Of a DNA stretch of 64,000 nucleotides, positions 45,367-55,667 are shown piece by piece. The first letter of the stretch is position 1. Each line of letters begins with the position of its first letter. The notes under the pieces are model-generated. The model did not search any database. It saw only the letters and a list, made by a program, of their open reading frames with translations, and was not told where the DNA came from. The stretch is from an uncultured Acidobacteriaceae bacterium (GTDB lineage: Bacteria; Acidobacteriota; Terriglobia; Terriglobales; Acidobacteriaceae): contig CAVZCY010000003.1 in assembly GCA_963773915.1 (NCBI GenBank), forward strand, positions 5,914-69,913, written 5' to 3'. The translations under genes were made by a program, and so were the position numbers.

Positions 45367-47511
45367 ATGCCAATGAATCGACGCGAGTTTATCGCGGCAT
45401 CTGTGGCCGGAGCCGCGGTGCTGCACGGGGAAATGAACGCGTTTGCCGCTCCTGCGGGAACCATACAGGTGACGGTCGATGCGACCAGGAGCGGCGCGCA
45501 AATCAATCCCATGATTTTTGGCGGCTACATGGAGCCGGCGACAACGCAGGTGTGGGCGGAAGTCTTGACCGACCGAAAATTTGCCAACGCGATTACCAGC
45601 GCGCCGACGCCGCTGCCGGCCAATCCTTTTTTCCGGCGCTTCTTTGGCGAGCCCTTCAAGCCGGTCGGGCCAGAGGGGACTGTCGAAATGGATCATTCGC
45701 GGCCCTTCGTCGGGGAACACAGCCCGCGCGTGAAGCTTGATCCCTCCGAGCCGCGAGGCATTCGACAATCCAAATTGCGCATAGGTGGCAAGCCTTACGA
45801 GGGGCGCGTGATCCTGGCCGGCGATCCGGGCACGAACATTACAGTTCGCTTGGCCTGGGGGCCCGGCGCCGCCGATTCGGAAACAGTCAAGATCCCTTCG
45901 TTATCTGGCGAGTACCAGAAATTTCCGCTCAAGTTTACGCCGGCTGCTGACACCGAGGAAGCAAGCCTGGAAATACTGGGTACCGGGACAGGCGTATTTC
46001 ATGTGGGCGCAGTGTCCCTGATGCCCGCTGACAATGTGCAGGGGTTTCACGCTGGGATGATTCGGTTCATGAAAGAAGAAGGCTTCAAGATGTTCAAGTG
46101 GCCGGGCGGCAACTTTGTTTCTGCGTACGACTATCGCGATGGCCTTGGCGATCGCGACAAGCGCCCGCCGCGCCTGCAACCGATGTGGTCCGACAGGGTG
46201 GAGTCGAACGACGTCGGTCTTCATGAATTCATCGGTCTGTGCCGGCTGGTCGGAGCTGAGCCCGACCTGGCAATCGATAGTGGGTTCGGCTCGGCTCGCG
46301 AGGCGGCTGAGCAGGTTGAATACTGCAACGGTTCCGTCGAAACCCGCATGGGCAAAATGCGTGCCGAGAACGGCAGCCCCGAACCATTCAATGTTCGTTG
46401 CTGGACCATCGGCAACGAGATGTATGGTCCCTGGCAGTACGGCCACATGTCGCTCGACCAATATTGGGTAAAGCACAACTACATCGTCGAAGCGATGAAG
46501 GCAGTTGACCCGGACATCAAGGTCACCGCCTCCGGAGCGAGCATATGCGAAAAGTCAGTGGGTGGCGCTGAAAAGAAAGGGAACTTTTTCCCAAGCATAT
46601 GGGAGCCCGCCATCACCGAAAAGCTGCCTTACGAGTTCGGCTCAATCTACGACTGGGATGGATGGCTTCTTCAAAAATGCGCCGGCAATATCGACTACCT
46701 TTCCGAGCACACATACGCTTATCCCGACCTGGCCTTCGACGAAGATAAACAACTCTATGTGGATCGCGAGGACCCGCTGCAGTTTAGCGCTCGCAGGCTT
46801 GCGAATCGTATCGGCGGCGCCTTCGATTGTTGGAACAATTACATCGAAAAGATGCCATCGTTGAAGGAGAGCAACATCAAATTCATCTTCGACGAATGGG
46901 GCAACCGCGCTCGATCGGCAAGCAGCCAGAACCATCCGTTGCCAGGAATGCTTAACGCCCTTTCCTATGCGCTTTGCCTCCACGAAATGTTCAGGCACTC
47001 CGATCAGATCGCGGCCAGTTGCGCCACCGGAGGTCTGCGGTTCCTTACCGATATCACAGGAGACGCCGTCGGGTTTCCCGCTGAAGGAGTCGTCATGAAA
47101 CTGATGCAGACGCTCTTTCTGAATGCGTTCCCGATTTTGGTCGACGGAGATTCGCCCCAGCAACAAGTCCCCGGCACCAATTTTGTTGACAAAGGGCCCA
47201 CGCCCACTGGAAGCCCGACTTATCCTCTTGATGTTCTCGCCGCGTTCTCGGGCGATCGTAAGCAATTTCTTTTATCCATTGTGAACCCGACGGAAAACGC
47301 GAACAGCTTTATTCCACGGCTTGGCGGTGTCAAGCTTCGCGAACGGGGCAAGCTATACCAGATCGCGCCTCCCAGCGTGAATTCCGCTAATGAAGCAGGT
47401 AGAGAGCCGGTGGTCAAAGTCGTTGAGACCGAGCAGCCTGCATTTCCGCAGACCGTAGAGGTCCCGCCCGTCAGCGTGAGCCTCTACCAATTTGAAGTGG
47501 AGATGGGTTAA
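45367..47511 (+). CDS. Second GH51 alpha-L-arabinofuranosidase-like, Tat-exported
   Basis: NRREF signal, FGGYMEP, KWPGGNF, IGNEMYG, IFDEWG, VPPVSV. Confidence 0.88.
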   Translation: MPMNRREFIAASVAGAAVLHGEMNAFAAPAGTIQVTVDATRSGAQINPMIFGGYMEPATTQVWAEVLTDRKFANAITSAPTPLPANPFFRRFFGEPFKPVGPEGTVEMDHSRPFVGEHSPRVKLDPSEPRGIRQSKLRIGGKPYEGRVILAGDPGTNITVRLAWGPGAADSETVKIPSLSGEYQKFPLKFTPAADTEEASLEILGTGTGVFHVGAVSLMPADNVQGFHAGMIRFMKEEGFKMFKWPGGNFVSAYDYRDGLGDRDKRPPRLQPMWSDRVESNDVGLHEFIGLCRLVGAEPDLAIDSGFGSAREAAEQVEYCNGSVETRMGKMRAENGSPEPFNVRCWTIGNEMYGPWQYGHMSLDQYWVKHNYIVEAMKAVDPDIKVTASGASICEKSVGGAEKKGNFFPSIWEPAITEKLPYEFGSIYDWDGWLLQKCAGNIDYLSEHTYAYPDLAFDEDKQLYVDREDPLQFSARRLANRIGGAFDCWNNYIEKMPSLKESNIKFIFDEWGNRARSASSQNHPLPGMLNALSYALCLHEMFRHSDQIAASCATGGLRFLTDITGDAVGFPAEGVVMKLMQTLFLNAFPILVDGDSPQQQVPGTNFVDKGPTPTGSPTYPLDVLAAFSGDRKQFLLSIVNPTENANSFIPRLGGVKLRERGKLYQIAPPSVNSANEAGREPVVKVVETEQPAFPQTVEVPPVSVSLYQFEVEMG

Positions 47512-47607
47512 ACGGGTTGACAGAATAAACGCAAACCAAAACAGGACCTGGTACATGTCTGTCAATCGACTCGAATTTCTCGCGGCATCTAAGCCACTAA
47601 TTTCAAT

Positions 47608-47823
47608 AGGTTTCCACAAATGATTTAATCTGCTTTGGGAGCAGAGGGTCGGGGGTTCGAATCCCTCCGCCCCGACCATTGTTTTTCAATACTCTGCAAG
47701 TGTTCAGCCAGATCATAAAGTAGGGCATCCGTTATTGCAGCAGATGCTCCACCGCAGAAAGGCGCGTCTTTATTGGGTTTTCATTGCTCGGTGGATGCAA
47801 TTACCGTTGCAAAATCGTCTACA
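47608..47823. other. att junction J2: perfect 51-nt tRNA-Pro 3' core (47628-47678) plus right arm
   Basis: Right-arm motif gttgcaaaatcgtctaca at 47806-47823, 128 bp from the core as in J1. Only atttcaataggtttcca survives on the left. Confidence 0.85.
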
Positions 47824-48218
47824 GGCGGAGTCTAGCGATGCTGTGAATTCAGCCATACGCAATTCATACAAAGACCTCGACCGACTGCCTATGTTTCCAT
47901 CATCATGTTCTGAGAGCGAAAGCACTGCACGAGGAATTGCGGAGTCGGACCGGCACCAGATCAAAATCAGGAAACACTGCGGCGTTTATGGGGACCAATC
48001 CTAGATGCCAGACCAAAAACTGGCATAAGCTTGGTCCATCCCCGTTTCTTCAAAGTCGGCCGTGTCGACCGGTTCGGCCACGTCATGCAATGGCGACTCT
48101 CGCGACCAAGCAACCGATTTACGCGATTCTACCGTCAAAGAGATTGAATGCTCCCTAACTGGACAGCGCGGTCAAAGGTTGCGTCTGTCGAATATGTTAG
48201 ACTTCGATCGGTGTCTCT

Positions 48219-48620
48219 GTGAAAGCACAACACTGGACTGCAACTCGGTCATTCAATCTCCTGGGAATCCTCGCATCCCTCCTGTTGGCTTTCTGTGTGT
48301 TCGCATGGGGTCTGCAATATAAGCTTTCCCTTTACGATCCACCTCAGGCAGCTTCTCATAAGATTCCGCAGGCCAAGCTCCTCTCCAGAAATGAGCGGGC
48401 CGGAGTCGCGGAAAGCCCGGTGATAGTCAGAACGAAAACCTCCACCACCGTTAGCTACACCGTTCCGACTGCTGCTGTCTTCTTCCTTCTGTCGCTGACC
48501 CTGAACATATTAAGTCTGCAAACGTCGCGACAAAGAAATCAGCGCACGAGTAGTGTCTGGCGTCTTCAAAGCGGCTTATTCAAGGTCTTCTTCGTTCGTC
48601 CCCCGCCCATTCTCGTCTAG
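48219..48620 (+). CDS. Small two-TM protein ending in FFVRPPP-ILV, leader of the RND operon
   Basis: GTG start, TM1 LLGILASLLLAFCVFAWGLQYKLSLY, TM2 AAVFFLLSLTLNIL, RPPP codons at 48597-48608. Confidence 0.65.
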   Translation: MKAQHWTATRSFNLLGILASLLLAFCVFAWGLQYKLSLYDPPQAASHKIPQAKLLSRNERAGVAESPVIVRTKTSTTVSYTVPTAAVFFLLSLTLNILSLQTSRQRNQRTSSVWRLQSGLFKVFFVRPPPILV

Positions 48621-48762
48621 TTCTTCCTCTCCACATAAGATTTGACGCATCTCACTCTGGCTAATTGGCCGAGTGTCCCGCGTCGTTTTCTCCACTGACA
48701 ACGTGCCAGGCCATTCCGGCCACGGCAGTCGCAGAACTTTATTTACGAGGTGCAATCGAGAT

Positions 48763-50035
48763 ATGCGAAGGCAGACCTCCTTGATTCTCGCCCTTGGATT
48801 GGCGTTTCCGGTGGCGACCACTTTAGTTGCCTGTCACACGGCAGATAACAAAGCCGCAACTGTTCCATCCGCAAAAGTTGCCGCAGCGCAGCGGGGCGAC
48901 ATTTCTCATGTGCTCACGCTGGCCGGTCAGTTCCAGCCGTACCAAGTAGTCGATGTGCACCCAAAGGTTAGCGGCTATATGTCGCGCATCAATGTGGATA
49001 TTGGCGACGTGGTTCATCAGGGCCAGACGCTGGCGGTGCTTGAAGTGCCGGAGTTGAAAGCGGAGTTGCAGCAAACAGTATTTCAACTTCAGCAAAGCAA
49101 AGAACAGATCACGCAAGCGCAGCACGAGATCAATCGCGCCGAGGCGGAGCACGCGGCCCTGCACGCTGCGTCAGATCGGTTGAAGCAGGCGGCCGAGGGC
49201 CGGCCGGGGTTGATTGCGCAACAGGAACTGGACGACGCGCAGGCCAAGGACTTGTCGTCGGAGGCGCAGGTAGATGCGGCCAAATCGGCGATGGCGGCGG
49301 CGCAGGAACATGCAAACGCAGCGCAGTCAGACAATCAGCGCATCCAGGCGCTGGAAAACTACACCAACGTCACGGCGCCTCTGGATGGAGTCGTGATCTG
49401 GCGCTATGCAGATACCGGCGCTCTGATTCAGGGCGGCACCAACTCCAACGACCAGACGCTTCCCATCGTCCGCATATCGCAGAGTAATCTGCTCCGGCTG
49501 CGCATTCCGGTGCCTGAGGACGATGTGAAGTACGTTCATGCCGGCGACCAATTGCAGGTGCGCGTCGATGCGATTGGCCGATCCTTCACGGGAAAGATCG
49601 TGCGCTTTACGCGCGACGTGAACTTCGAAACCCGCACCATGGAGACCGAAGTCGACGTGGAGAACAAAGATCTGTCCATTGCGCCGGGAATGTACGCCAA
49701 CACGCTATCTGCAACTGGGGCATGTGACCGGAGTCGTGACGATTCCCGTTGAGGCGCTGGTGCTAAATGGACAACAGGAAACGGTCTATGTGCTCGACGA
49801 CAACAATCGTATTCATATTCGCAACGTCACCGTGGGCCTGCAGGGATCGAAGCTGGCCGAGATCACCAGCGGGCTCAACCCTGGCGACCGAGTGGTGATC
49901 GGTGGCCAGGATAAGTATCAGGAAAACGAAGAGGTCAACGCGCTGCTGACCCCCGAGCCCGCATCGGAGACCGCGCAGCAGACGGGCGGCATGATCGACA
50001 TGAAGGCCGAAACGAGCGATGGAGGCGCGCACTAA
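48763..50035 (+). CDS. RND efflux membrane fusion protein (frameshift ~49707)
   Basis: Lipoprotein-like signal LVAC, VHPKVSGY, VTAPLDGV, LRLRIPVPE, TRTMETE, PGMY, IPVEAL. Confidence 0.9.
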
Positions 50036-53000
50036 TGCCGAAGTTTGCTCTCAGATTTCCCTACTTCATCATCATGCTGTGCCTGCTGGTTTCGCTTGTC
50101 GGTGCAGTCAACATCGCTCAGATGCCGGTGGACCTGTTTCCCAAAATCGATATGCCGGTCGTGGTGGTGGCGACGTTCTACAACGGGATGCCCCCGCAGC
50201 AGATTGAAGCCGACATAACAAATACATTCGAACGATTCTTCACTCTGGGCGCCAACATCGATCACAGCGAGTCACGCTCGCTGACCGGCGTGAGCCTGAT
50301 CAAAATCTATTTCAAGCCGGGCACCGATCCGAATGCGGCGCTGAGCAACATCGCCAATCTGGCCATGGCCGATCTGCGCCGATTGCCGCCGGGAACGCTG
50401 CCGCCGGTGGTGCTGGGCATGGACGCATCAACGCAGCCAGTATGCCTGGTCACGCTGAAGGGGCAGGGACTGAACGAGACCAGCCTGAAGGATCTGGCGC
50501 AGTTCCAGGTGCGCAACCAGATTTCGAACGTGCAGGGCGCTTCTGTGCCGCAGCCCTATGGAGGAACCTACCGACAGATTCAGATTTACGTGGATCCGCT
50601 GAAGATGGAGGCGCGCAACCTGAGCCTGAACGATGTGGTGACATCGGTGAACAGTTCGAACCTGATTTTGCCGGCAGGCGATGTGCGCATCGGTTCAAAG
50701 GACTACAACATCTACGCCAACAGCCAGTTTCCCGATGCGAATTCAATGAACCAGATGCCGCTGAAGTCGGTCGGCAACTCATCGGTGCTGGTGGGTGACA
50801 TTGGCAAAGCGATCGACTCGGGCGCACTGCAATACAACATCGTGCGCATCGACGGACAGCGATCCGTTTACGTGCCGGTCTTCAAGCAGGGCGGCGACAG
50901 CAACACCATCACCATCGTCAACGGAATGAAAGCTGCGATCAAGCATCTGGTCGACATTCCGGAATCGCTGAAAACAGCAGTCGTATTCGACCAGTCGGTG
51001 TTCGTCAAAATGGCGATCGAGAATGTTTCGAAGGAAGCGCTCATCGGACTGGTGCTGACCGGAGTGATGATTCTGGTCTTCCTGGGCAGCCCGCGCGCCA
51101 TGATCGCCGTGGTTCTCTCCGTTCCGCTCTCAATGGTGGTCTGCCTGCTGATCACCGATTACACGGGCGGCTCCATCAACACCATGATTCTGGGCGGACT
51201 GGCGCTGGTCTTCTCCCGACTGATCGATAACGGCGTCATCGTGCTTGAAAACATCTTCCGGCACATGGAGATGGGTAAATCGCCTGAGGTTGCGGCGGAG
51301 GTGGGCGGAACAGAAGTCTCGATGGCGGTGCTGGCGGCCACATTCACTACGTCCATCGTGTTTTTCCCAGTGACGTTTTTCACCGGCGTCAGCAAGTACA
51401 TCTTCACGCCGATGGCGCTGGGCGTTGTGCTTTCGATCTTCGCATCGTACTTCTTCGCCATGACAGTGGTGCCGCTCTTCTGCGCCAAATTCATCCGCCT
51501 GCACGGCGACGTTGAAGGCGACCGAATCCAGGCATAACTTCTTCACGCGCTTCGAGACCAAGTTCAACGAAAAGTTCCAGGCCATGCTGAACTGGTACGA
51601 AGGCCTTGCCATGCGGGCGATGGAGCGGCCTGGCTTTACCGCCGCGGCGATCTTTGGCGGCGTGGTGCTGCTGCTGTTGGTGACGGTTCCCTTCATCGGC
51701 CGCGCATATTTCCCCGCACTGATCCAGGCCAGTTCATCATCGACGTGCGCATGCCAAGCGGCACGCGCCTTGAAGTGAGCAACGACTACATCGCAAAAGT
51801 TGAAGACATCATCCGCAGCGTGGTTCCTCCCAAAGATCTGGGGATGATCGTTTCCAACATCGGCGTCTATCCCGATCTTTCGGCGATCTACACCACCAAC
51901 GCCTCGATGGACACGGCATTTGTGCAGACCAGTCTCAAGGAGGGCCATAGCGTCGGCAGCTATGAGTACATTCGCCGCGTGCAGGAGAAGCTGTCGCGCG
52001 AGATGCCCGAGCTCTCCGCCTATTACCAGGCAGGCGGATTGGTGGATTCGGTCATCAATCAAGGACTGCCGGCTCCCATCGACATTCAAATCAAATCGCA
52101 AAATATGGATAGCTCATTTGCATTGGCCACGCAACTGGCGGCGAAGATCAAGGCGATGCCCAACGTGAGCAATGTGTATATCCCGCAAAGCATCGACTAT
52201 CCCGGTCTCGCGCTGAACATCGACCGCGAGCGAGCCAGCCTGATCGGGCTTTCTGCTAAAGACGTGGTGGACGACGTGATTACTGCGCTCACCTCAGACG
52301 GCATGGTGGCCCCCAGTTATTGGATCGATCCGAAGAGCGGCAACAACTACATGGTCACGGTGCAATACGCGAACAGCTGGATTGACAACATGTCGATGGA
52401 GGATGTGAAGAACATTCCGTTGCGCGGCGTTCGCCCTGCCGGCTACAGCCCAATGCAAACGGGCGGCCAGGCGGATCCATCTGCAACGCAGATGCCCGGC
52501 AGCGACAACTCGGCCGGCTACGTGCCGCTCGGGGCGGTTGCCGATATCCAGCAGATCAACACGCCCACCGAAGTCGACCACAACCAGATTCGCCGCGTGA
52601 TCGATATTTATGTGGCCACCAAGGGCGAGGCACTGCAAGGTGTGGGATCGCAAATCGATCGTCTACTGGCTGATACAAAGCACGACAAAAACACGGTGAT
52701 CGATGTCAGGGGTGCTGTGGTGAGCATGAACCAGGCATTCCACGACTTCGGCATCGGCCTCATCATTGCCATCCTGCTCGTCTACCTGATTTTGATGGCT
52801 CAATTCGCTTCGTTCATCGATCCTTTCATCATCCTGATGGCCATTCCGCCGGGGCTTGCCGGCGTCGCGCTCATCCTCCTCGTCACCGGCAGTTCGCTGA
52901 ACATCATGTCGCTGATGGGAGTGATCATGATGGCCGGCATCGTGGTGTCGAACAGCATCCTCATCGTCGAGTTCGCTGGGATTCTTCACAAGCAGGGCAT

Positions 53001-53262
53001 GGGGTTGAAGGCCGCGGTAGTGGAGTCGTGCAAGGTTCGTCTGCGCCCCATTTTGATGACCTCGCTGGCCACGCTGCTTGGCATGATTCCGATGGCGTTG
53101 GGACTGGAGGCCGGCAGCGAACAGTATGCGCCATTGGCGCGCGCCATCATCGGCGGATTGGCGCTTTCCGTTGTCGTCACCATGTTCCTCGTTCCAGCGG
53201 TGTACCTGGTGATCCATGGGCGCGACGAAGCAAAGGCCGCAGTCGCGGAGGAACAGGCATGA
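50035..53262 (+). CDS. RND efflux permease (two frameshifts, ~51525 and ~51715)
   Basis: MPVDLFPKID, IDNGVIVLENI, FFPVTF, VPLFC, NSILIVEF, RLRPILMTSLAT, PLARAIIGGL. A C-run deletion at ttccccgcact explains the second break. Confidence 0.9.
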
Positions 53263-54647
53263 CTGAACACCTAAGAAGAAAATCGTTCCCTGCCACATGC
53301 ACATTTCTGTTACTGATCTTGTTGCCGTGCGCAGTGCATTCGCAACAGGCGCAGGCGCCAGCGGTGCCAATGCCTTCGCTGCAACTTCCGGCTGCTCAGT
53401 CGCCCACTGAGCCAGTTGCGCCCTCGGGACCGCGGCTGACGCTTGCGGATGCAGAGCGCATGGCGATTGCGCACAACCCAAACATCAGCGTGGCGCGGCT
53501 GATAGCGCTGGCGCAGGCGCAGGTAACGCGCGAAGTGCGCTCTGCCGAACTGCCCACGGTACAGGGCGACCTGACCGCCGTGGGCGCGCACGAAAACAGC
53601 CGCATCACCGCGGGCCTGCTGAATAATCCATCCGTTTATAACCGAGCGGCGGGCGGCTTGTCGGTGAGCCAACTCATCACCGACTTCGGGCGCACGCACA
53701 ACCTGGTGCTCAGCGCGCAATCGAACGCCAAGGCGCAGCTTGAAAACGAGCGAGCCACTGAGCTCGACATCACGCTGACGGTGGATCAGGCTTTCTATCA
53801 GGCGCTGACGAGCCAGGCGGTTCTGAAGGTGGCGGAAGAAACCGTAAACCAGCGCGAGGCGACCGTAGATCAGGTTGGCGCTCTCGCTAAAAATAAGCTG
53901 CGGTCGGATCTCGATCTGAGTTTTGCTGATGTTCAACTCTCTCAAGCAAAATTGCTTTTGCTTGACGCCCGGAATGATGCTGCCGACGCCATGGCCAGCC
54001 TGAACACCGTGTTGGGCTCCGAACAGGATGAGCAATATACGCTCGTGGATGAAACTACTGCCAGTCCTGACCCTGCGCCCGAGGACGCCGACGCTCTGCT
54101 GCAAACGGCGTTCACCGCGCGTCCCGATCTTGCCGCGCTCAACTATAACTACACGGCTGCCCGCCACTTCAGCACCGCTGAGCGCGATCTATGGATGCCG
54201 ACCGTCTCGGCATTGGCTGCGGCAGGAGCCACTCCGGTGCGCGCGGATCAGATTCAATCCTCGTGGTACGGCGCAGCCGGCGCAAACATCAGTATTCCAA
54301 TCTTCAATGGATTTTTGAACAACGCCCGCGCACAGGAGGCAAAGCTGCGCGCGAAAGCAGCCGGTGAACAAGTGAGGAACTTGCGCGATGTGATTGCGCG
54401 CGATTTACGCACCGCGGTCCTGAACGCGCAGAACGCATTCCAGCGCATCGGTGTCACTCAGGAAATGCTGAAAGAGTCGAATATGGCTCTCGATCTTTCA
54501 CAGGCGCGGTACAAGATCGGCTTGAGCGGCATCGTGGAGCTTACCCAGGCGCAACTTGCACAAACGCAGGCGGAGATTGCCTATGCCAATGCCCGCTACG
54601 CCTATCAAACCGCGCTGGCGGTAGTGCGATTCCAGACCGGCCAGTAG
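53259..54647 (+). CDS. TolC-family outer-membrane factor
   Basis: LTLADAERMAIAHNP, ITDFGRT, RPDL, ISIPIFNG, RYKIGLS...ELTQAQL. ATGA overlap. Confidence 0.9.
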   Translation: MTEHLRRKSFPATCTFLLLILLPCAVHSQQAQAPAVPMPSLQLPAAQSPTEPVAPSGPRLTLADAERMAIAHNPNISVARLIALAQAQVTREVRSAELPTVQGDLTAVGAHENSRITAGLLNNPSVYNRAAGGLSVSQLITDFGRTHNLVLSAQSNAKAQLENERATELDITLTVDQAFYQALTSQAVLKVAEETVNQREATVDQVGALAKNKLRSDLDLSFADVQLSQAKLLLLDARNDAADAMASLNTVLGSEQDEQYTLVDETTASPDPAPEDADALLQTAFTARPDLAALNYNYTAARHFSTAERDLWMPTVSALAAAGATPVRADQIQSSWYGAAGANISIPIFNGFLNNARAQEAKLRAKAAGEQVRNLRDVIARDLRTAVLNAQNAFQRIGVTQEMLKESNMALDLSQARYKIGLSGIVELTQAQLAQTQAEIAYANARYAYQTALAVVRFQTGQ

Positions 54648-54779: not shown

Positions 54780-55667
54780 ATGCCAGTGATTGGCGACAGG
54801 CCCGAATTGAACCTGAGAAGCGTTATCTATGCGACAGATTTTTCTCCTTGCTCCAGGAACGCGGGCCTCTACGCCGCTCGCTTGGCCGCCTATTTCTCAG
54901 CGAAGCTTGTGGTGACTCATGCCTTCACACTGGAACAGGCCGCGATGGAAGTTGAAATTGGTGACAGGCAATTAAGCCAGCAGAGAGAGAGCTTGACGCA
55001 TCATCTGTGGACAGAGGCAGATCTTCTGGGAGCACGTTCAATCGATATCATTCCCACGCTCCTTGAAGGCGCTCCGGAGGATGTGATTCCAGCTCTGGCG
55101 GACAGGCTTGAGCCTTCCATGATCGTTCTCGGGACGCATGGCCGAGGCCGGCTCGATCGGGGAATCATCGGTTCGACCGCGGAGAAAATCCTGAGGTCCA
55201 CCCGCTGGCCGGCGCTTACCGTGGGACCTCACGTTCAGCCCTTGTCCTCGCAAACGTTCCCTTTCGAGAGAATTCTTTTTGCCACCGACTTTACTGAGAC
55301 GGCCGCCAATGCTGCCACCTACGCGGTTACATTCGCTGAGGTTTTTGCGGCGAAGATCGATGTGCTCAACGTGATTGAGGACGACGTCATTAAACATCCT
55401 GATCGCTTATCCGAACTTCAGTCCCGCTTCTTCAACGCTCTTGACGCCCTTGTGCCGCAATCTGCCAGAGAGTTCTGCGATCCAAGAACTTTTCTAGCCG
55501 TCGGCGGGGCGCACGACAAAATCCTTGAACACATCAGGGAGCGATCGATCGAACTCCTCGTGCTTGGCATCCGGAAGACTTCGCATATCGGCATGGAGAT
55601 GAGAACATCCGGAGCCTTTCGGATCATCGTAGATGCTCCGTGCCCGGTTCTGACGATCAGGAGTTGA
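54780..55667 (+). CDS. Tandem-domain universal stress protein
   Basis: VIYATDFSPCS, MIVLGTHGRG...GSTAEKILR, ILFATDF, LLVLG, APCPVLTI. Confidence 0.92.
   Translation: MPVIGDRPELNLRSVIYATDFSPCSRNAGLYAARLAAYFSAKLVVTHAFTLEQAAMEVEIGDRQLSQQRESLTHHLWTEADLLGARSIDIIPTLLEGAPEDVIPALADRLEPSMIVLGTHGRGRLDRGIIGSTAEKILRSTRWPALTVGPHVQPLSSQTFPFERILFATDFTETAANAATYAVTFAEVFAAKIDVLNVIEDDVIKHPDRLSELQSRFFNALDALVPQSAREFCDPRTFLAVGGAHDKILEHIRERSIELLVLGIRKTSHIGMEMRTSGAFRIIVDAPCPVLTIRS

What the first reader, a model, noticed from the sequence alone, without database searches (positions are those of the whole stretch)
48219..48762. Candidate ribosome-arrest leader (…FFVRPPP) ahead of the RND efflux operon
Seen: a 133-aa ORF with two hydrophobic segments ends in RPPP three residues before the stop. 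A 142-bp spacer follows with two possible hairpins (cactc..gagtg and tgcc..ggcc..ggcc..ggca) before the MFP ribosome-binding site. Known: RAPP/RGPP-type C-terminal motifs cause stalling in membrane- or secretion-targeted monitoring peptides (ApdA, ApdP) and in DUF2946-type uORFs such as CruR that control downstream transporters. Inference: efflux expression may be coupled to membrane insertion or substrate sensing through an arrest peptide of an uncharacterised family.
Basis: partly seen in the sequence, partly recalled or inferred. Interest (0 to 1): 0.65.

Follow-up and report, generated by a model that had tools for sequence, protein, structure and literature searches.

The report
RPPP-tailed leader gene before efflux pump
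A small membrane-protein gene in front of an efflux-pump operon belongs to a large, unnamed family in soil Acidobacteria that always ends in the strong ribosome-stalling sequence Arg-Pro-Pro-Pro three residues before the stop, so it is very probably a stalling-type sensor that switches the pump genes on, though stalling itself is untested.

Summary
The 133-aa ORF (48219-48620) has two hydrophobic segments, RPPP at 48597-48608 three codons before TAG, and a 142-nt spacer with both named hairpins before the adaptor (MFP) gene.

It is a real, conserved gene:
- 676 clusters at 50% identity, all Acidobacteriaceae-type, with no Pfam or NCBIfam match.
- Among diverse representatives, 131 of 148 carry RPPP and 6 carry LPPP; the 11 others look truncated or frameshifted. 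The tail is 3 aa in 114 of those 137.
- All Arg and Pro synonymous codons are used, so selection acts on the peptide.
- The loop-motif-to-RPPP spacing is fixed at 74±1 aa.
- Every assessable locus continues into MFP-RND-OMP after a ~139-nt spacer with two covarying hairpins.

The same genome holds two other unrelated RPPP-tailed small ORFs. One is a CxxC/DUF2946-like ORF before a TonB receptor (CruR-like). The other lies upstream of secA (SecM-like).

Best reading (confidence 0.6): a new family of ribosome-arrest leader, analogous to CruR and CutF but not homologous to them, gating a multidrug-type RND operon. How the stall reaches the pump genes is unresolved; Rho antitermination is slightly favoured over unmasking of the ribosome-binding site. 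No stall has been shown. Verdict: new variant of a known kind.

The parts
48219..48620 (+). Leader ORF, 133 aa, GTG start, TAG stop; member of a large unnamed Acidobacteriaceae family
   Evidence: 451 homologues at E<=0.01, and 676 clusters at 50% identity at E<=1e-3. No Pfam or NCBIfam family matches.
48255..48314 (+). First hydrophobic segment (residues ~13-32). It is either a TM anchor or an export signal, with a nearly invariant L-A-x-C (L23, A24, C26).
   Evidence: Hydropathy, helix 6-38 in the AF2 model, invariant columns.
48306..48395 (+). Invariant loop motif WGLQYKLSLYDPPQAASHxIPQAKLLSRNE (residues 30-59), the candidate sensor part. AF2 predicts it unstructured.
   Evidence: (invariant W30 G31 K35-Y39 A52 K53 L55 S56). 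AKLLS-to-Arg spacing is 74 aa in 57 of 73 loci and within ±1 in 71 of 73.
48468..48518 (+). Second hydrophobic segment (residues ~84-100). Its centre lies ~40 aa before the last Pro, so it would be just leaving the exit tunnel when the ribosome reaches PPP.
   Evidence: the distance mode is 39-40 across the family. Helix 84-126.
48573..48608 (+). Conserved C-terminal module A-x-L-x-A-F-F-[FV]-R-P-P-P (here GLFKVFFVRPPP); RPPP is at 48597-48608.
   Evidence: information content per position. Arg uses CGC/CGT/CGG/CGA/AGG/AGA and all four Pro codons occur at each Pro.
48609..48620 (+). Three-codon tail (I-L-V) plus TAG stop. The tail length and its synonymous sites are conserved.
   Evidence: Tail is 3 aa in 73 of 83 loci and 114 of 137 representatives. 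GTT-CTC-GCC is kept at 87-93%. TAG is the stop in 70 of 87 loci against 28% genome-wide.
48588..48635 (+). C-rich, G-poor tract spanning the stall site, stop codon and first spacer bases; a candidate Rho loading site that a stalled ribosome would cover.
   Evidence: C is 0.45-0.55 and G 0.13-0.15 from -30 to 0, and C 0.32 and G 0.13 from 0 to +15. Composition only; no functional test.
48643..48685 (+). Spacer hairpin 1 (tgacgc / cactc / ggct ... ggcc / gagtg / gcgtcg)
   Evidence: MFE and centroid. In the window's subgroup 70.8% of cells pair against 33-42% in slid controls. The equivalent hairpin in the larger subgroup has 10 of 11 pairs with compensatory changes.
48704..48727 (+). Spacer hairpin 3 (tgcc-ggcc ... 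ggcc-ggca)
   Evidence: It pairs in 65% of cells in the window's subgroup, so support is moderate.
48744..48775 (+). Highly conserved translation-initiation region of the MFP gene: Shine-Dalgarno (SD) GAGGTG at 48747-48752 and ATG at 48763
   Evidence: columns 193-220 are at least 90% conserved, including the bases between the SD and the ATG.
48763..50035 (+). RND adaptor (MFP) gene, interrupted by a frameshift near 49709-49731 in this assembly
   Evidence: Relatives have an intact gene of 416-428 aa.
50035..53262 (+). RND permease gene. It scores closer to the multidrug-type profile than to the CusA/CzcA profile and is interrupted twice (~51515 and ~51730) in this assembly.
   Evidence: Relatives have an intact gene of 1062-1075 aa.
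53262..54647 (+). Outer-membrane factor (TolC/OEP family)
54780..55667 (+). Tandem universal stress protein gene, also conserved downstream of the operon in relatives

Best explanation
The 133-aa ORF is a cis-acting regulatory leader of the ribosome-arrest type, and its product is inserted into or exported across the membrane as it is made. Proposed sequence of events: the ribosome reaches F-F-V-R-P-P-P (48597-48608) and pauses or arrests with three codons left. At that moment the second hydrophobic segment is just emerging from the exit tunnel, and the invariant loop motif is already outside the ribosome. What happens to those parts sets how long the ribosome stays. They could be inserted into the membrane, translocated, or bound by a ligand or partner. 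A long-lived stall allows expression of the MFP-RND-OMP operon 142 nt downstream. I slightly favour the CruR/TnaC route, in which the stalled ribosome covers a C-rich, G-poor tract around the stop codon and so keeps Rho off the nascent RNA. The alternative is that the stall remodels spacer RNA pairings around the MFP initiation region. Shown here: the gene is real and under peptide-level selection. Also shown are the invariance of the motif, its tail and its spacings, obligatory synteny with the pump, conserved spacer hairpins, and reuse of the same C-terminal module in CruR-like and secA-upstream ORFs of the same genome. Inferred: the stall, its modulation, the sign of regulation and the relay mechanism.
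For: (1) Motif and position: RPPP is in 81 of 83 unique loci, with 1 RAPP and 1 LPPP, and the tail is 3 aa in 73 of 83. Among representatives at 50% identity, 131 have RPPP and 6 LPPP of 148, and the tail is 3 aa in 114.
(2) Peptide-level selection: six Arg codons and all four Pro codons are used.
(3) A conserved ~12-residue module sits next to the peptidyl-transferase centre, followed upstream by a variable linker of fixed length. AKLLS-to-R spacing is 74±1 aa, which parallels the fixed CXXC-RAPP spacing of CruR (PMC9426467).
(4) The centre of the second hydrophobic segment is ~40 aa from the last Pro. From my own knowledge of Ismail et al. 2012, this is the geometry at which membrane insertion pulls on an arrested chain.
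(5) Synteny: 8 of 8 genus relatives and every locus not cut by a contig end continue into MFP-RND-OMP. Spacer median is 139 nt, IQR 137-142. No dedicated repressor gene is conserved next to the operon.
(6) RPPP gave the strongest stalling of all XPPP motifs in vitro and in vivo in E. coli (PMC4176338). It is listed among RAPP-like motifs (PMC10987492).
(7) CruR has RAPP exactly three residues before its C-terminus, a 162-nt intergenic region and Rho-dependent control.
(8) In this genome a CxxC/weak-DUF2946 ORF ending LFIRPPPVSC* precedes a TonB-type receptor, and a 75-aa ORF ending FQRPPPLTIA* lies upstream of secA. Both are conserved in relatives. hhalign aligns only the FF[VI]RPPP module between the leader family and the CxxC family.
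(9) Spacer hairpins covary: 83.5% of cells pair against 27-47% in slid controls, and 16 pairs have double changes.
(10) Rho and EF-P genes are present.
(11) RGPP and RAPP are depleted in this proteome (observed/expected, O/E, 0.19 and 0.61). RPPP (1.1) is well below APPP, TPPP and SPPP (2.4-2.8).
Against:
[quoted passage not shown] PPP stalls are normally relieved by EF-P, which this genome encodes.
- The N-terminal half is far more conserved than a mere targeting signal needs to be. That would also fit a stable functional membrane protein.
- Folding shows no consistent sequestration of the MFP Shine-Dalgarno (SD), and masking the stalled-ribosome footprint hardly changes SD accessibility.
- The hairpins start ~25 nt beyond the reach of a ribosome stalled at PPP.
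- The Rho idea rests on base composition alone.
- In this assembly the MFP and RND genes are interrupted, so the operon may not be functional here.
Confidence: 0.6

Rival explanations
1. The ORF encodes a stable small membrane protein, either an accessory or assembly subunit or a periplasmic sensor of the RND pump, comparable in role to AcrZ or CzcI. The C-terminal FFVRPPPxLx would then be a protein-level motif for interaction, turnover or topology, not a regulatory stall.
For: The first hydrophobic segment and loop are very strongly conserved (invariant W30 G31 K35-Y39 A52 K53 L55 S56), more than known monitoring substrates need. The gene strictly co-occurs with the pump genes. CzcI, a DUF2946-like protein before czcCBA, lacks a Pro motif and is thought to act as a protein (PMC9973294).
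Against: A binding motif does not explain why the distance to the stop codon is fixed. It also does not explain conservation of the tail's synonymous sites and TAG stop, or the fixed-length but sequence-variable linker upstream of the module. The same module ends two unrelated small ORFs sitting in classic arrest-peptide positions, before secA and before a TonB receptor. AF2 finds no folded domain (pLDDT 62, loop disordered). The two roles are not mutually exclusive.
Confidence: 0.2
2. The polyproline run is an EF-P-dependent pause. It tunes the leader's own output, or couples pump expression to translation capacity, EF-P activity or proline supply (as proposed for CadC or mgtP), with no role for membrane insertion or a ligand.
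For: RPPP is the strongest EF-P-dependent XPPP context (PMC4176338). The genome has efp plus a split paralogue.
Against: This does not explain the invariant loop motif, the fixed loop-to-RPPP and hydrophobic-segment-to-RPPP spacings, or the conserved FF[FV] and A-x-L-x-A residues upstream. In CruR, deleting efp had no effect on regulation.
Confidence: 0.12
3. The leader and the pump are merely adjacent genes with independent expression. The conserved spacer hairpins would then be mRNA-stability or processing elements, or carry the pump's own promoter or operator.
For: No consistent SD-sequestering structure was found. The MFP initiation region is conserved on its own.
Against: The spacer length (IQR 137-142) and gene order are invariant over hundreds of loci at 35-85% protein identity. 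No sigma-70-like promoter or intrinsic terminator is predicted in the spacer. The C-terminal motif would be left unexplained.
Confidence: 0.08

Closest known systems
CruR (Bp2923) of Bordetella pertussis, DUF2946/PF11162 (Roy et al. 2022, PMC9426467)
   Same: Both are ~130-145-aa upstream ORFs with an N-terminal hydrophobic or export segment. [quoted passage not shown] Both have a long intergenic region (162 vs ~139 nt) before a transporter gene and a C>G tract near the 3' end.
   Different: No sequence homology: PF11162 does not hit any of 32 members or the locus in 31 genomes. There is no CXXC. The motif is RPPP, not RAPP. The target is a tripartite RND efflux operon, not a TonB receptor. 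The signal is unknown, and Rho dependence is untested here.
CutF of Rhodobacter capsulatus and CutF-like proteins, including CzcI before czcCBA (PMC9973294)
   Same: A small, cotranslationally exported sensor encoded directly upstream of envelope detoxification genes. It has a proline-rich C-terminus flanked by basic residues. The family is noted to head RND metal pumps.
   Different: CutF acts through a stem-loop that shields the next gene's SD; no such consistent stem is seen here. CutF and CzcI have Cys metal-binding motifs. CzcI lacks the Pro motif. The pump here scores closer to the multidrug-type RND profile than to CusA/CzcA.
Sec/YidC monitoring substrates: SecM, VemP, MifM, ApdA/ApdP (RAPP class) (PMC7897499, PMC10987492, PMC10951233)
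   Same: A membrane-targeted nascent chain with a C-terminal arrest motif of the R-x-P-P type. Arrest is thought to be released by the pulling force of translocation or insertion. The hydrophobic segment lies ~30-45 aa from the arrest point.
   Different: The downstream genes are an efflux pump, not protein-localisation machinery. The upstream part of the sequence is highly conserved. Note that a separate secA-upstream RPPP ORF exists elsewhere in this genome.
TnaC / tna operon and drug-dependent leaders (ErmCL and similar)
   Same: A ribosome held near the end of a leader ORF prevents Rho loading (TnaC) or remodels downstream RNA (Erm) to switch on the next gene.
   Different: Those leaders are short (8-40 aa), cytoplasmic, and sense a small molecule inside the ribosome. 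This one is 130 aa with hydrophobic segments.

Membership tests
DUF2946 / CruR-CutF family (PF11162) | Significant match to the PF11162 profile | tested here: not met
   There was no hit at E<=0.1 for the window protein and none at E<=10 in 32 family members. The profile did not hit the locus in the window's own genome or in any of the other 30 relatives' genomes searched.
DUF2946 / CruR-CutF family (PF11162) | Conserved CXXC (or CxxxC) metal-binding motif | tested here: not met
   Only one nearly invariant Cys (C26, in the first hydrophobic segment) and one His (H47) are conserved.
DUF2946 / CruR-CutF family (PF11162) | C-terminal R-A-P-P / proline-rich motif about three residues before the stop | tested here: met
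   RPPP (once RAPP) with a 3-aa tail occurs in 73 of 83 loci and 114 of 137 representatives. The residue after Arg differs (Pro instead of Ala).
DUF2946 / CruR-CutF family (PF11162) | First gene of an operon for envelope transport or detoxification, with a fixed spacing between sensor motif and arrest motif | tested here: met
   Leader-MFP-RND-OMP order holds in all assessable loci. AKLLS-to-R spacing is 74±1 aa.
Ribosome arrest peptides (functional class) | Demonstrated elongation arrest at a defined codon that depends on the nascent sequence | not testable with these tools
   This needs toeprinting, peptidyl-tRNA detection or ribosome profiling.
Ribosome arrest peptides (functional class) | Arrest controls expression of the downstream gene in cis | not testable with these tools
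   Only indirect evidence exists: fixed spacer, covarying hairpins and a C-rich tract.
Sec/YidC monitoring substrates (SecM, VemP, MifM, Apd) | Encoded directly upstream of secA, secDF or yidC | tested here: not met
   The downstream gene is an RND adaptor.
Sec/YidC monitoring substrates (SecM, VemP, MifM, Apd) | Stem-loop that sequesters the downstream SD and is opened by the stalled ribosome | tested here: inconclusive
   The predicted SD partner differs between loci, and masking the stalled-ribosome footprint changes little. Candidate pairings (spacer hairpin 1 3' arm with the MFP initiation region; hairpin 2 5' arm with the SD) are complementary but show no covariation above shuffles. The tail-to-hairpin-2 pairing shows weak covariation.
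EF-P-dependent polyproline stall motifs | XPPP with a strong -1 residue | tested here: met
   R at -1 is invariant in 96% of members, and RPPP is the strongest context in PMC4176338. EF-P dependence in this organism was not tested.

The most novel reading that the evidence does not exclude
Acidobacteriaceae use F-x-R-P-P-P-(3-5 aa)-stop as a portable arrest module, grafted onto at least three unrelated membrane-targeted sensor peptides. This family would be the first arrest-peptide sensor that gates a multidrug-type tripartite RND pump. It would read out either membrane-insertion or proton-motive-force status, or occupancy of its invariant periplasmic loop by a pump substrate or pump component. 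Efflux capacity would then be set cotranslationally, without any transcription factor.
Probability: 0.3. Interest if true: 0.8.

Novelty: new variant of a known kind. Interest (0 to 1): 0.6.

Why it matters
Arrest peptides that sense the cell envelope are known for protein-export machinery (SecM, VemP, MifM, Apd) and, recently, for copper homeostasis (CruR, CutF). RND efflux pumps are usually described as controlled by repressors and two-component systems.

A large, well-defined family (hundreds of clusters) would extend this logic in three ways:
- to non-metal efflux;
- to a poorly studied, abundant soil phylum;
- to RPPP, a motif normally regarded as a nuisance that EF-P resolves.

It also gives the arrest-peptide field a natural set of three unrelated sensors sharing one arrest module in one genome. 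That is a useful system for asking what makes a polyproline pause regulatable. The practical consequence is modest. These small ORFs are unannotated and should be recognised as probable regulators when acidobacterial efflux and uptake operons are interpreted.

Tried and rejected
- **RNAalifold consensus:** on the whole spacer alignment of 59 sequences it gave no consensus structure. In the window's subgroup it gave only a 3-bp stem. Structure had to be tested with named helices per subgroup.
- **SecM/CutF-style SD sequestration:** per-sequence partition-function folding, with and without a masked stalled-ribosome footprint, gave inconsistent SD partners and no systematic opening (the script stopped after 17 loci). 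It is not supported, and not excluded.
- **Alternative pairings:** I tested spacer hairpin 1 3' arm with the MFP initiation region, hairpin 2 5' arm with the SD, and leader tail with hairpin 2 3' arm. The sequences are complementary, but covariation is no better than shuffles except weakly for the tail pairing. Tail:hairpin-2 and hairpin-2:SD would also cross each other as a pseudoknot.
- **Membership in DUF2946:** rejected by HMM and by profile-profile comparison with the genome's own DUF2946-like family. Only the 9-aa tail aligns.
- **Rfam:** no riboswitch or known leader in 47200-49000.
- **Promoter and terminator scan:** no + strand promoter or terminator (one weak − strand promoter-like site) in 47400-49000.
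- **AlphaFold2:** the model was low-confidence (pLDDT 62), so I did not run a fold search.
- **PEP-CTERM-type sorting signal:** considered because of the VP-hydrophobic-Arg-rich layout. No NCBIfam model hits, and 30 residues follow the hydrophobic segment.
- **Lipoprotein signal (L-A-x-C):** considered; the -1 residue is variable and often bulky, so this stays unresolved.
Full report
**1. The observation**

The window sequence and ORF list show a 133-aa ORF at 48219-48620 on the + strand, with a GTG start, ending ...GLFKVFFVRPPPILV*.
- Arg127 is CGT at 48597-48599, Pro128-130 occupy 48600-48608, three codons follow (ATT CTC GTC), and TAG is at 48618-48620.
- Hydropathy gives two hydrophobic segments, residues ~13-32 and ~84-100.
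- The spacer 48621-48762 is 142 nt. GAGGTG lies at 48747-48752 and the next ATG at 48763.
- That gene is an RND periplasmic adaptor. It is followed by an AcrB-family permease, a TolC-type outer-membrane factor and a tandem Usp gene.
They are cactc/gagtg within a longer stem at 48643-48685, and tgcc-ggcc/ggcc-ggca at 48704-48727. The fold z-score is -2.19.

The description is correct at the stated coordinates.

**2. It is a real gene of a large family**

A word-indexed search found 451 homologues at E<=0.01, typically ~130 aa and 52-85% identical. An exhaustive profile search of 1.84 billion representatives found 676 clusters at 50% identity at E<=1e-3, of which 310 scored at <=1e-10.

In species-representative genomes, 220 loci encode a relative. 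Nearly all are Acidobacteriaceae MAGs labelled Terracidiphilus, Alloacidobacterium, Pseudacidobacterium or Terriglobales. Within the window's genus, 9 of 25 genomes (the window's own included) have it; 0 of 16 genomes of a sister family do. No Pfam or NCBIfam model matches.

**3. The C-terminal motif**

In 83 unique loci the motif is RPPP 81 times, RAPP once and LPPP once. The tail after PPP is 3 aa in 73. Among the best 148 representatives at 50% identity, 131 have RPPP and 6 have LPPP; the tail is 3 aa in 114 of those 137. The 11 without a motif look truncated or frameshifted.

Selection acts on the peptide, because synonymous codons vary:
- Arg is encoded by CGC, CGT, CGG, CGA, AGG and AGA.
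- Every Pro position uses all four codons.

Conservation extends about 12 residues upstream, as A-x-L-x-A-F-F-[FV]-R-P-P-P. Before that comes a sequence-variable but length-invariant linker.

Two spacings are fixed:
- From the invariant loop motif AKLLS to the Arg: 74 aa in 57 of 73 loci and within ±1 in 71 of 73.
- From the centre of the second hydrophobic segment to the last Pro: ~39-40 aa.

This anatomy is that of known arrest peptides. It comprises a short conserved core next to the peptidyl-transferase centre, a spacer that only has to fill the tunnel, and a sensor part at a fixed distance.

**4. Synteny and spacer**

All eight genus relatives with a homologue have leader, MFP, RND and OMP in that order. 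Every one of the further loci not cut by a contig end has the MFP gene next. Metagenomic contigs with called genes show leader (136-142 aa), MFP (416-428 aa), an intact RND (1062-1075 aa), OMP and Usp. Their upstream neighbours vary and are stress-related: OsmC, AhpC, LysR and an ECF sigma factor.

The spacer has a median length of 139 nt, IQR 137-142.
- In the larger sequence subgroup it holds two adjacent hairpins. On 28 sequences, 83.5% of cells pair against 27-47% when partners are slid, and 16 of 24 pairs show compensatory double changes that no shuffle reached.
- In the window's own subgroup, the structure read from the window pairs in 70.8% of cells against 33-42% for slid controls. Shuffle statistics are weak, and there is a bias because the structure was derived from one of the sequences.
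- The MFP initiation region (AGAGGTGCATTCGAGATATGCGAAAGCGA) is at least 90% conserved, including the bases between the Shine-Dalgarno (SD) and the ATG.

**5. What the literature says**
- CruR of B. pertussis (DUF2946) is a 145-aa upstream ORF. It has RAPP three residues before its C-terminus, a conserved CXXC-RAPP spacing and a 162-nt intergenic region. Stalling at RAPP prevents Rho-dependent termination before a TonB receptor gene, and copper relieves the stall (PMC9426467).
- CutF works through an SD-shielding stem-loop. CutF-like proteins head many metal operons, including CzcI before czcCBA (PMC9973294).
- RAPP peptides arrest by perturbing the peptidyl-transferase centre (PMC10951233).
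- RPPP is listed among RAPP-like motifs, although most such sequences taken from ordinary proteins did not arrest efficiently (PMC10987492).
- Searches for a description of this family, or of arrest leaders before acidobacterial RND pumps, found nothing.

**6. Independent support from the same genome**

I scanned all six-frame ORFs of at least 50 aa in the assembly for RPPP within seven residues of the stop. This gave 12 ORFs. Besides the finding, two are small membrane ORFs in classic leader positions.
- **Contig C1, 54449-54838.** It has HCQLC, then 43 residues, then LFIRPPPVSC*. A ~190-nt spacer follows, then a CarboxypepD_reg/TonB-type receptor. It gives sub-threshold DUF2946 hits, the best in the family being E=0.0026. 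It is conserved in 18 of 19 genomes of the genus that were searched (the window's own included), with the 43-aa spacing invariant in the copies read. This is a CruR-like ORF with RPPP in place of RAPP.
- **Contig C7, 271833-272060.** It is 75 aa with two hydrophobic segments, ends SFQRPPPLTIA*, and lies ~540 nt upstream of secA. The FQRPPP motif plus a 4-5 aa tail is conserved in at least seven relatives.

Profile-profile comparison of the RND-leader family with the CxxC family aligns only the nine-residue FF[VI]RPPP[IV] module. RPPP near the stop therefore looks like this lineage's counterpart of RAPP, attached to unrelated sensor peptides.

I treat that as a lead, not as evidence.

**7. How it most likely works**

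Shown: translation and peptide-level selection of the ORF, the invariant stall-prone module, the fixed geometry, obligatory linkage to the pump operon, and a conserved structured spacer.

Inferred: the ribosome pauses at RPPP, and the fate of the emerging hydrophobic segment and the invariant loop sets the pause length. A prolonged pause turns the operon on.

Two relay mechanisms are possible.
- **(a) Rho antitermination, as in CruR or TnaC.** A C-rich, G-poor tract runs from about -30 to +15 around the stop (C 0.32-0.55, G 0.13-0.15). It coincides with the footprint of a ribosome whose P site is on the Pro codons. The genome has rho. No intrinsic terminator is predicted.
- **(b) RNA remodelling.** The tail codons and stop are conserved at synonymous sites: GTT-CTC-GCC at 87-93%, and TAG in 70 of 87 loci against 28% genome-wide. 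The tail GTTCTC repeats the 5' arm of hairpin 2 and could pair with its 3' arm, and this pairing shows weak covariation. GCATTCGA in the MFP initiation region repeats the 5' arm of hairpin 1.

Against (b), thermodynamic folding gives no consistent SD partner and no opening on masking the stalled ribosome. The complementarities involving the SD show no covariation. The hairpins also begin ~25 nt beyond a ribosome stalled at PPP.

I rate arrest-type cis-regulation at 0.6 overall. Within it, I put (a) somewhat ahead of (b).

What is sensed is unknown. The permease scores higher against the multidrug-type profile (301 bits for the N-half) than against CusA/CzcA (186 bits), and the leader has no CxxC. 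Metal sensing is therefore less likely than membrane status, an amphiphilic substrate or the pump itself.

**8. Rivals**
- **A stable accessory subunit or sensor protein (0.2).** This is favoured by the very high conservation of the N-terminal half. It does not explain the fixed distance to the stop, the nucleotide-level conservation of the tail and TAG, or reuse of the module before secA and a TonB receptor. AF2 gives two helices and a disordered loop at low confidence.
- **A pure EF-P/proline-supply pause (0.12).** This ignores the fixed spacings.
- **Independent adjacent genes (0.08).** This leaves the motif unexplained.

**9. Caveats on this genome**

The MFP gene changes frame near 49709-49731, at a GGGG run. 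The RND gene passes through another frame between ~51515 and ~51730. Other genes of this 12-contig MAG are also split, and a second long-read MAG shows the same problem in this operon. Assembly indels are therefore the likelier cause, but decay of the operon in this strain cannot be excluded.

First-reader notes place the operon between att-like junctions of an integrated island. I saw a tRNA-like fragment at 47606-47678 and did not pursue this.

**10. Verdict**

The family is not a member of DUF2946 and not a Sec/YidC monitoring substrate. It works like them in architecture. It is a new variant of a known kind. Interest is 0.6.

Noticed in passing
L105:1501-1728 (own genome, contig C7:271833-272060): This 75-aa ORF has two hydrophobic segments, ends SFQRPPPLTIA*, and lies ~540 nt upstream of secA. 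The FQRPPP motif plus a 4-5 aa tail is conserved in at least seven genus relatives. It is a candidate SecM/ApdP-like monitoring substrate of Acidobacteria.
   Followed up: partly
L117:1501-1890 (own genome, contig C1:54449-54838): This small ORF has HCxLC, an invariant 43-aa spacing, then LF[IT]RPPPxxC*. It gives weak sub-threshold DUF2946 hits. A ~190-nt spacer follows, then a CarboxypepD_reg/TonB-type receptor. It looks like a CruR-like copper-type leader with RPPP instead of RAPP, conserved in 18 of 19 genomes of the genus that were searched (the window's own included).
   Followed up: partly
window 48763-53262: The MFP gene changes frame near 49709-49731 (GGGG run), and the RND gene passes through another frame between ~51515 and ~51730. 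Relatives have intact genes. Other genes of this MAG are also split (a TonB receptor on C1, an EF-P paralogue on C6), so long-read indel errors are likely but pseudogenisation is not excluded.
   Followed up: partly
window 48618-48620 and family-wide: The leader's stop codon is TAG in 70 of 87 loci, although TAG ends only 28% of long open frames in this genome. The two other RPPP-tailed families also mostly end in TAG. The three tail codons are 87-93% identical at synonymous sites. This points to a nucleotide-level or release-factor-specific constraint that is unexplained.
   Followed up: partly
window 48744-48775: The MFP translation-initiation region is at least 90% conserved over 59 loci, including the SD-to-ATG spacer. 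In the larger subgroup its GCATTCGA repeats the 5' arm of spacer hairpin 1, so the hairpin's 3' arm could pair with either copy. There is no covariation to prove it.
   Followed up: partly
window 47606-47678: A tRNA-like/tmRNA-like fragment (Rfam RF00023, 16.6 bits, far below the gathering score) lies just upstream of the leader's promoter region.
   Followed up: no
window 48288-48296 (L23-A24-x-C26): A nearly invariant L-A-x-C lies at the end of the first hydrophobic segment and resembles a loose lipobox. The first segment could be a cleaved lipoprotein-type signal rather than a TM anchor.
   Followed up: no
L129-L134 (metagenomic relatives): The conserved module is leader-MFP-RND-OMP, then a tiny HTH_1 fragment, then Usp. 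Upstream neighbours are often OsmC, AhpC/redoxin, LysR, an ECF sigma factor with a zf-HC2 anti-sigma, and a second RND permease. This suggests an oxidative or organic-peroxide stress neighbourhood.
   Followed up: no
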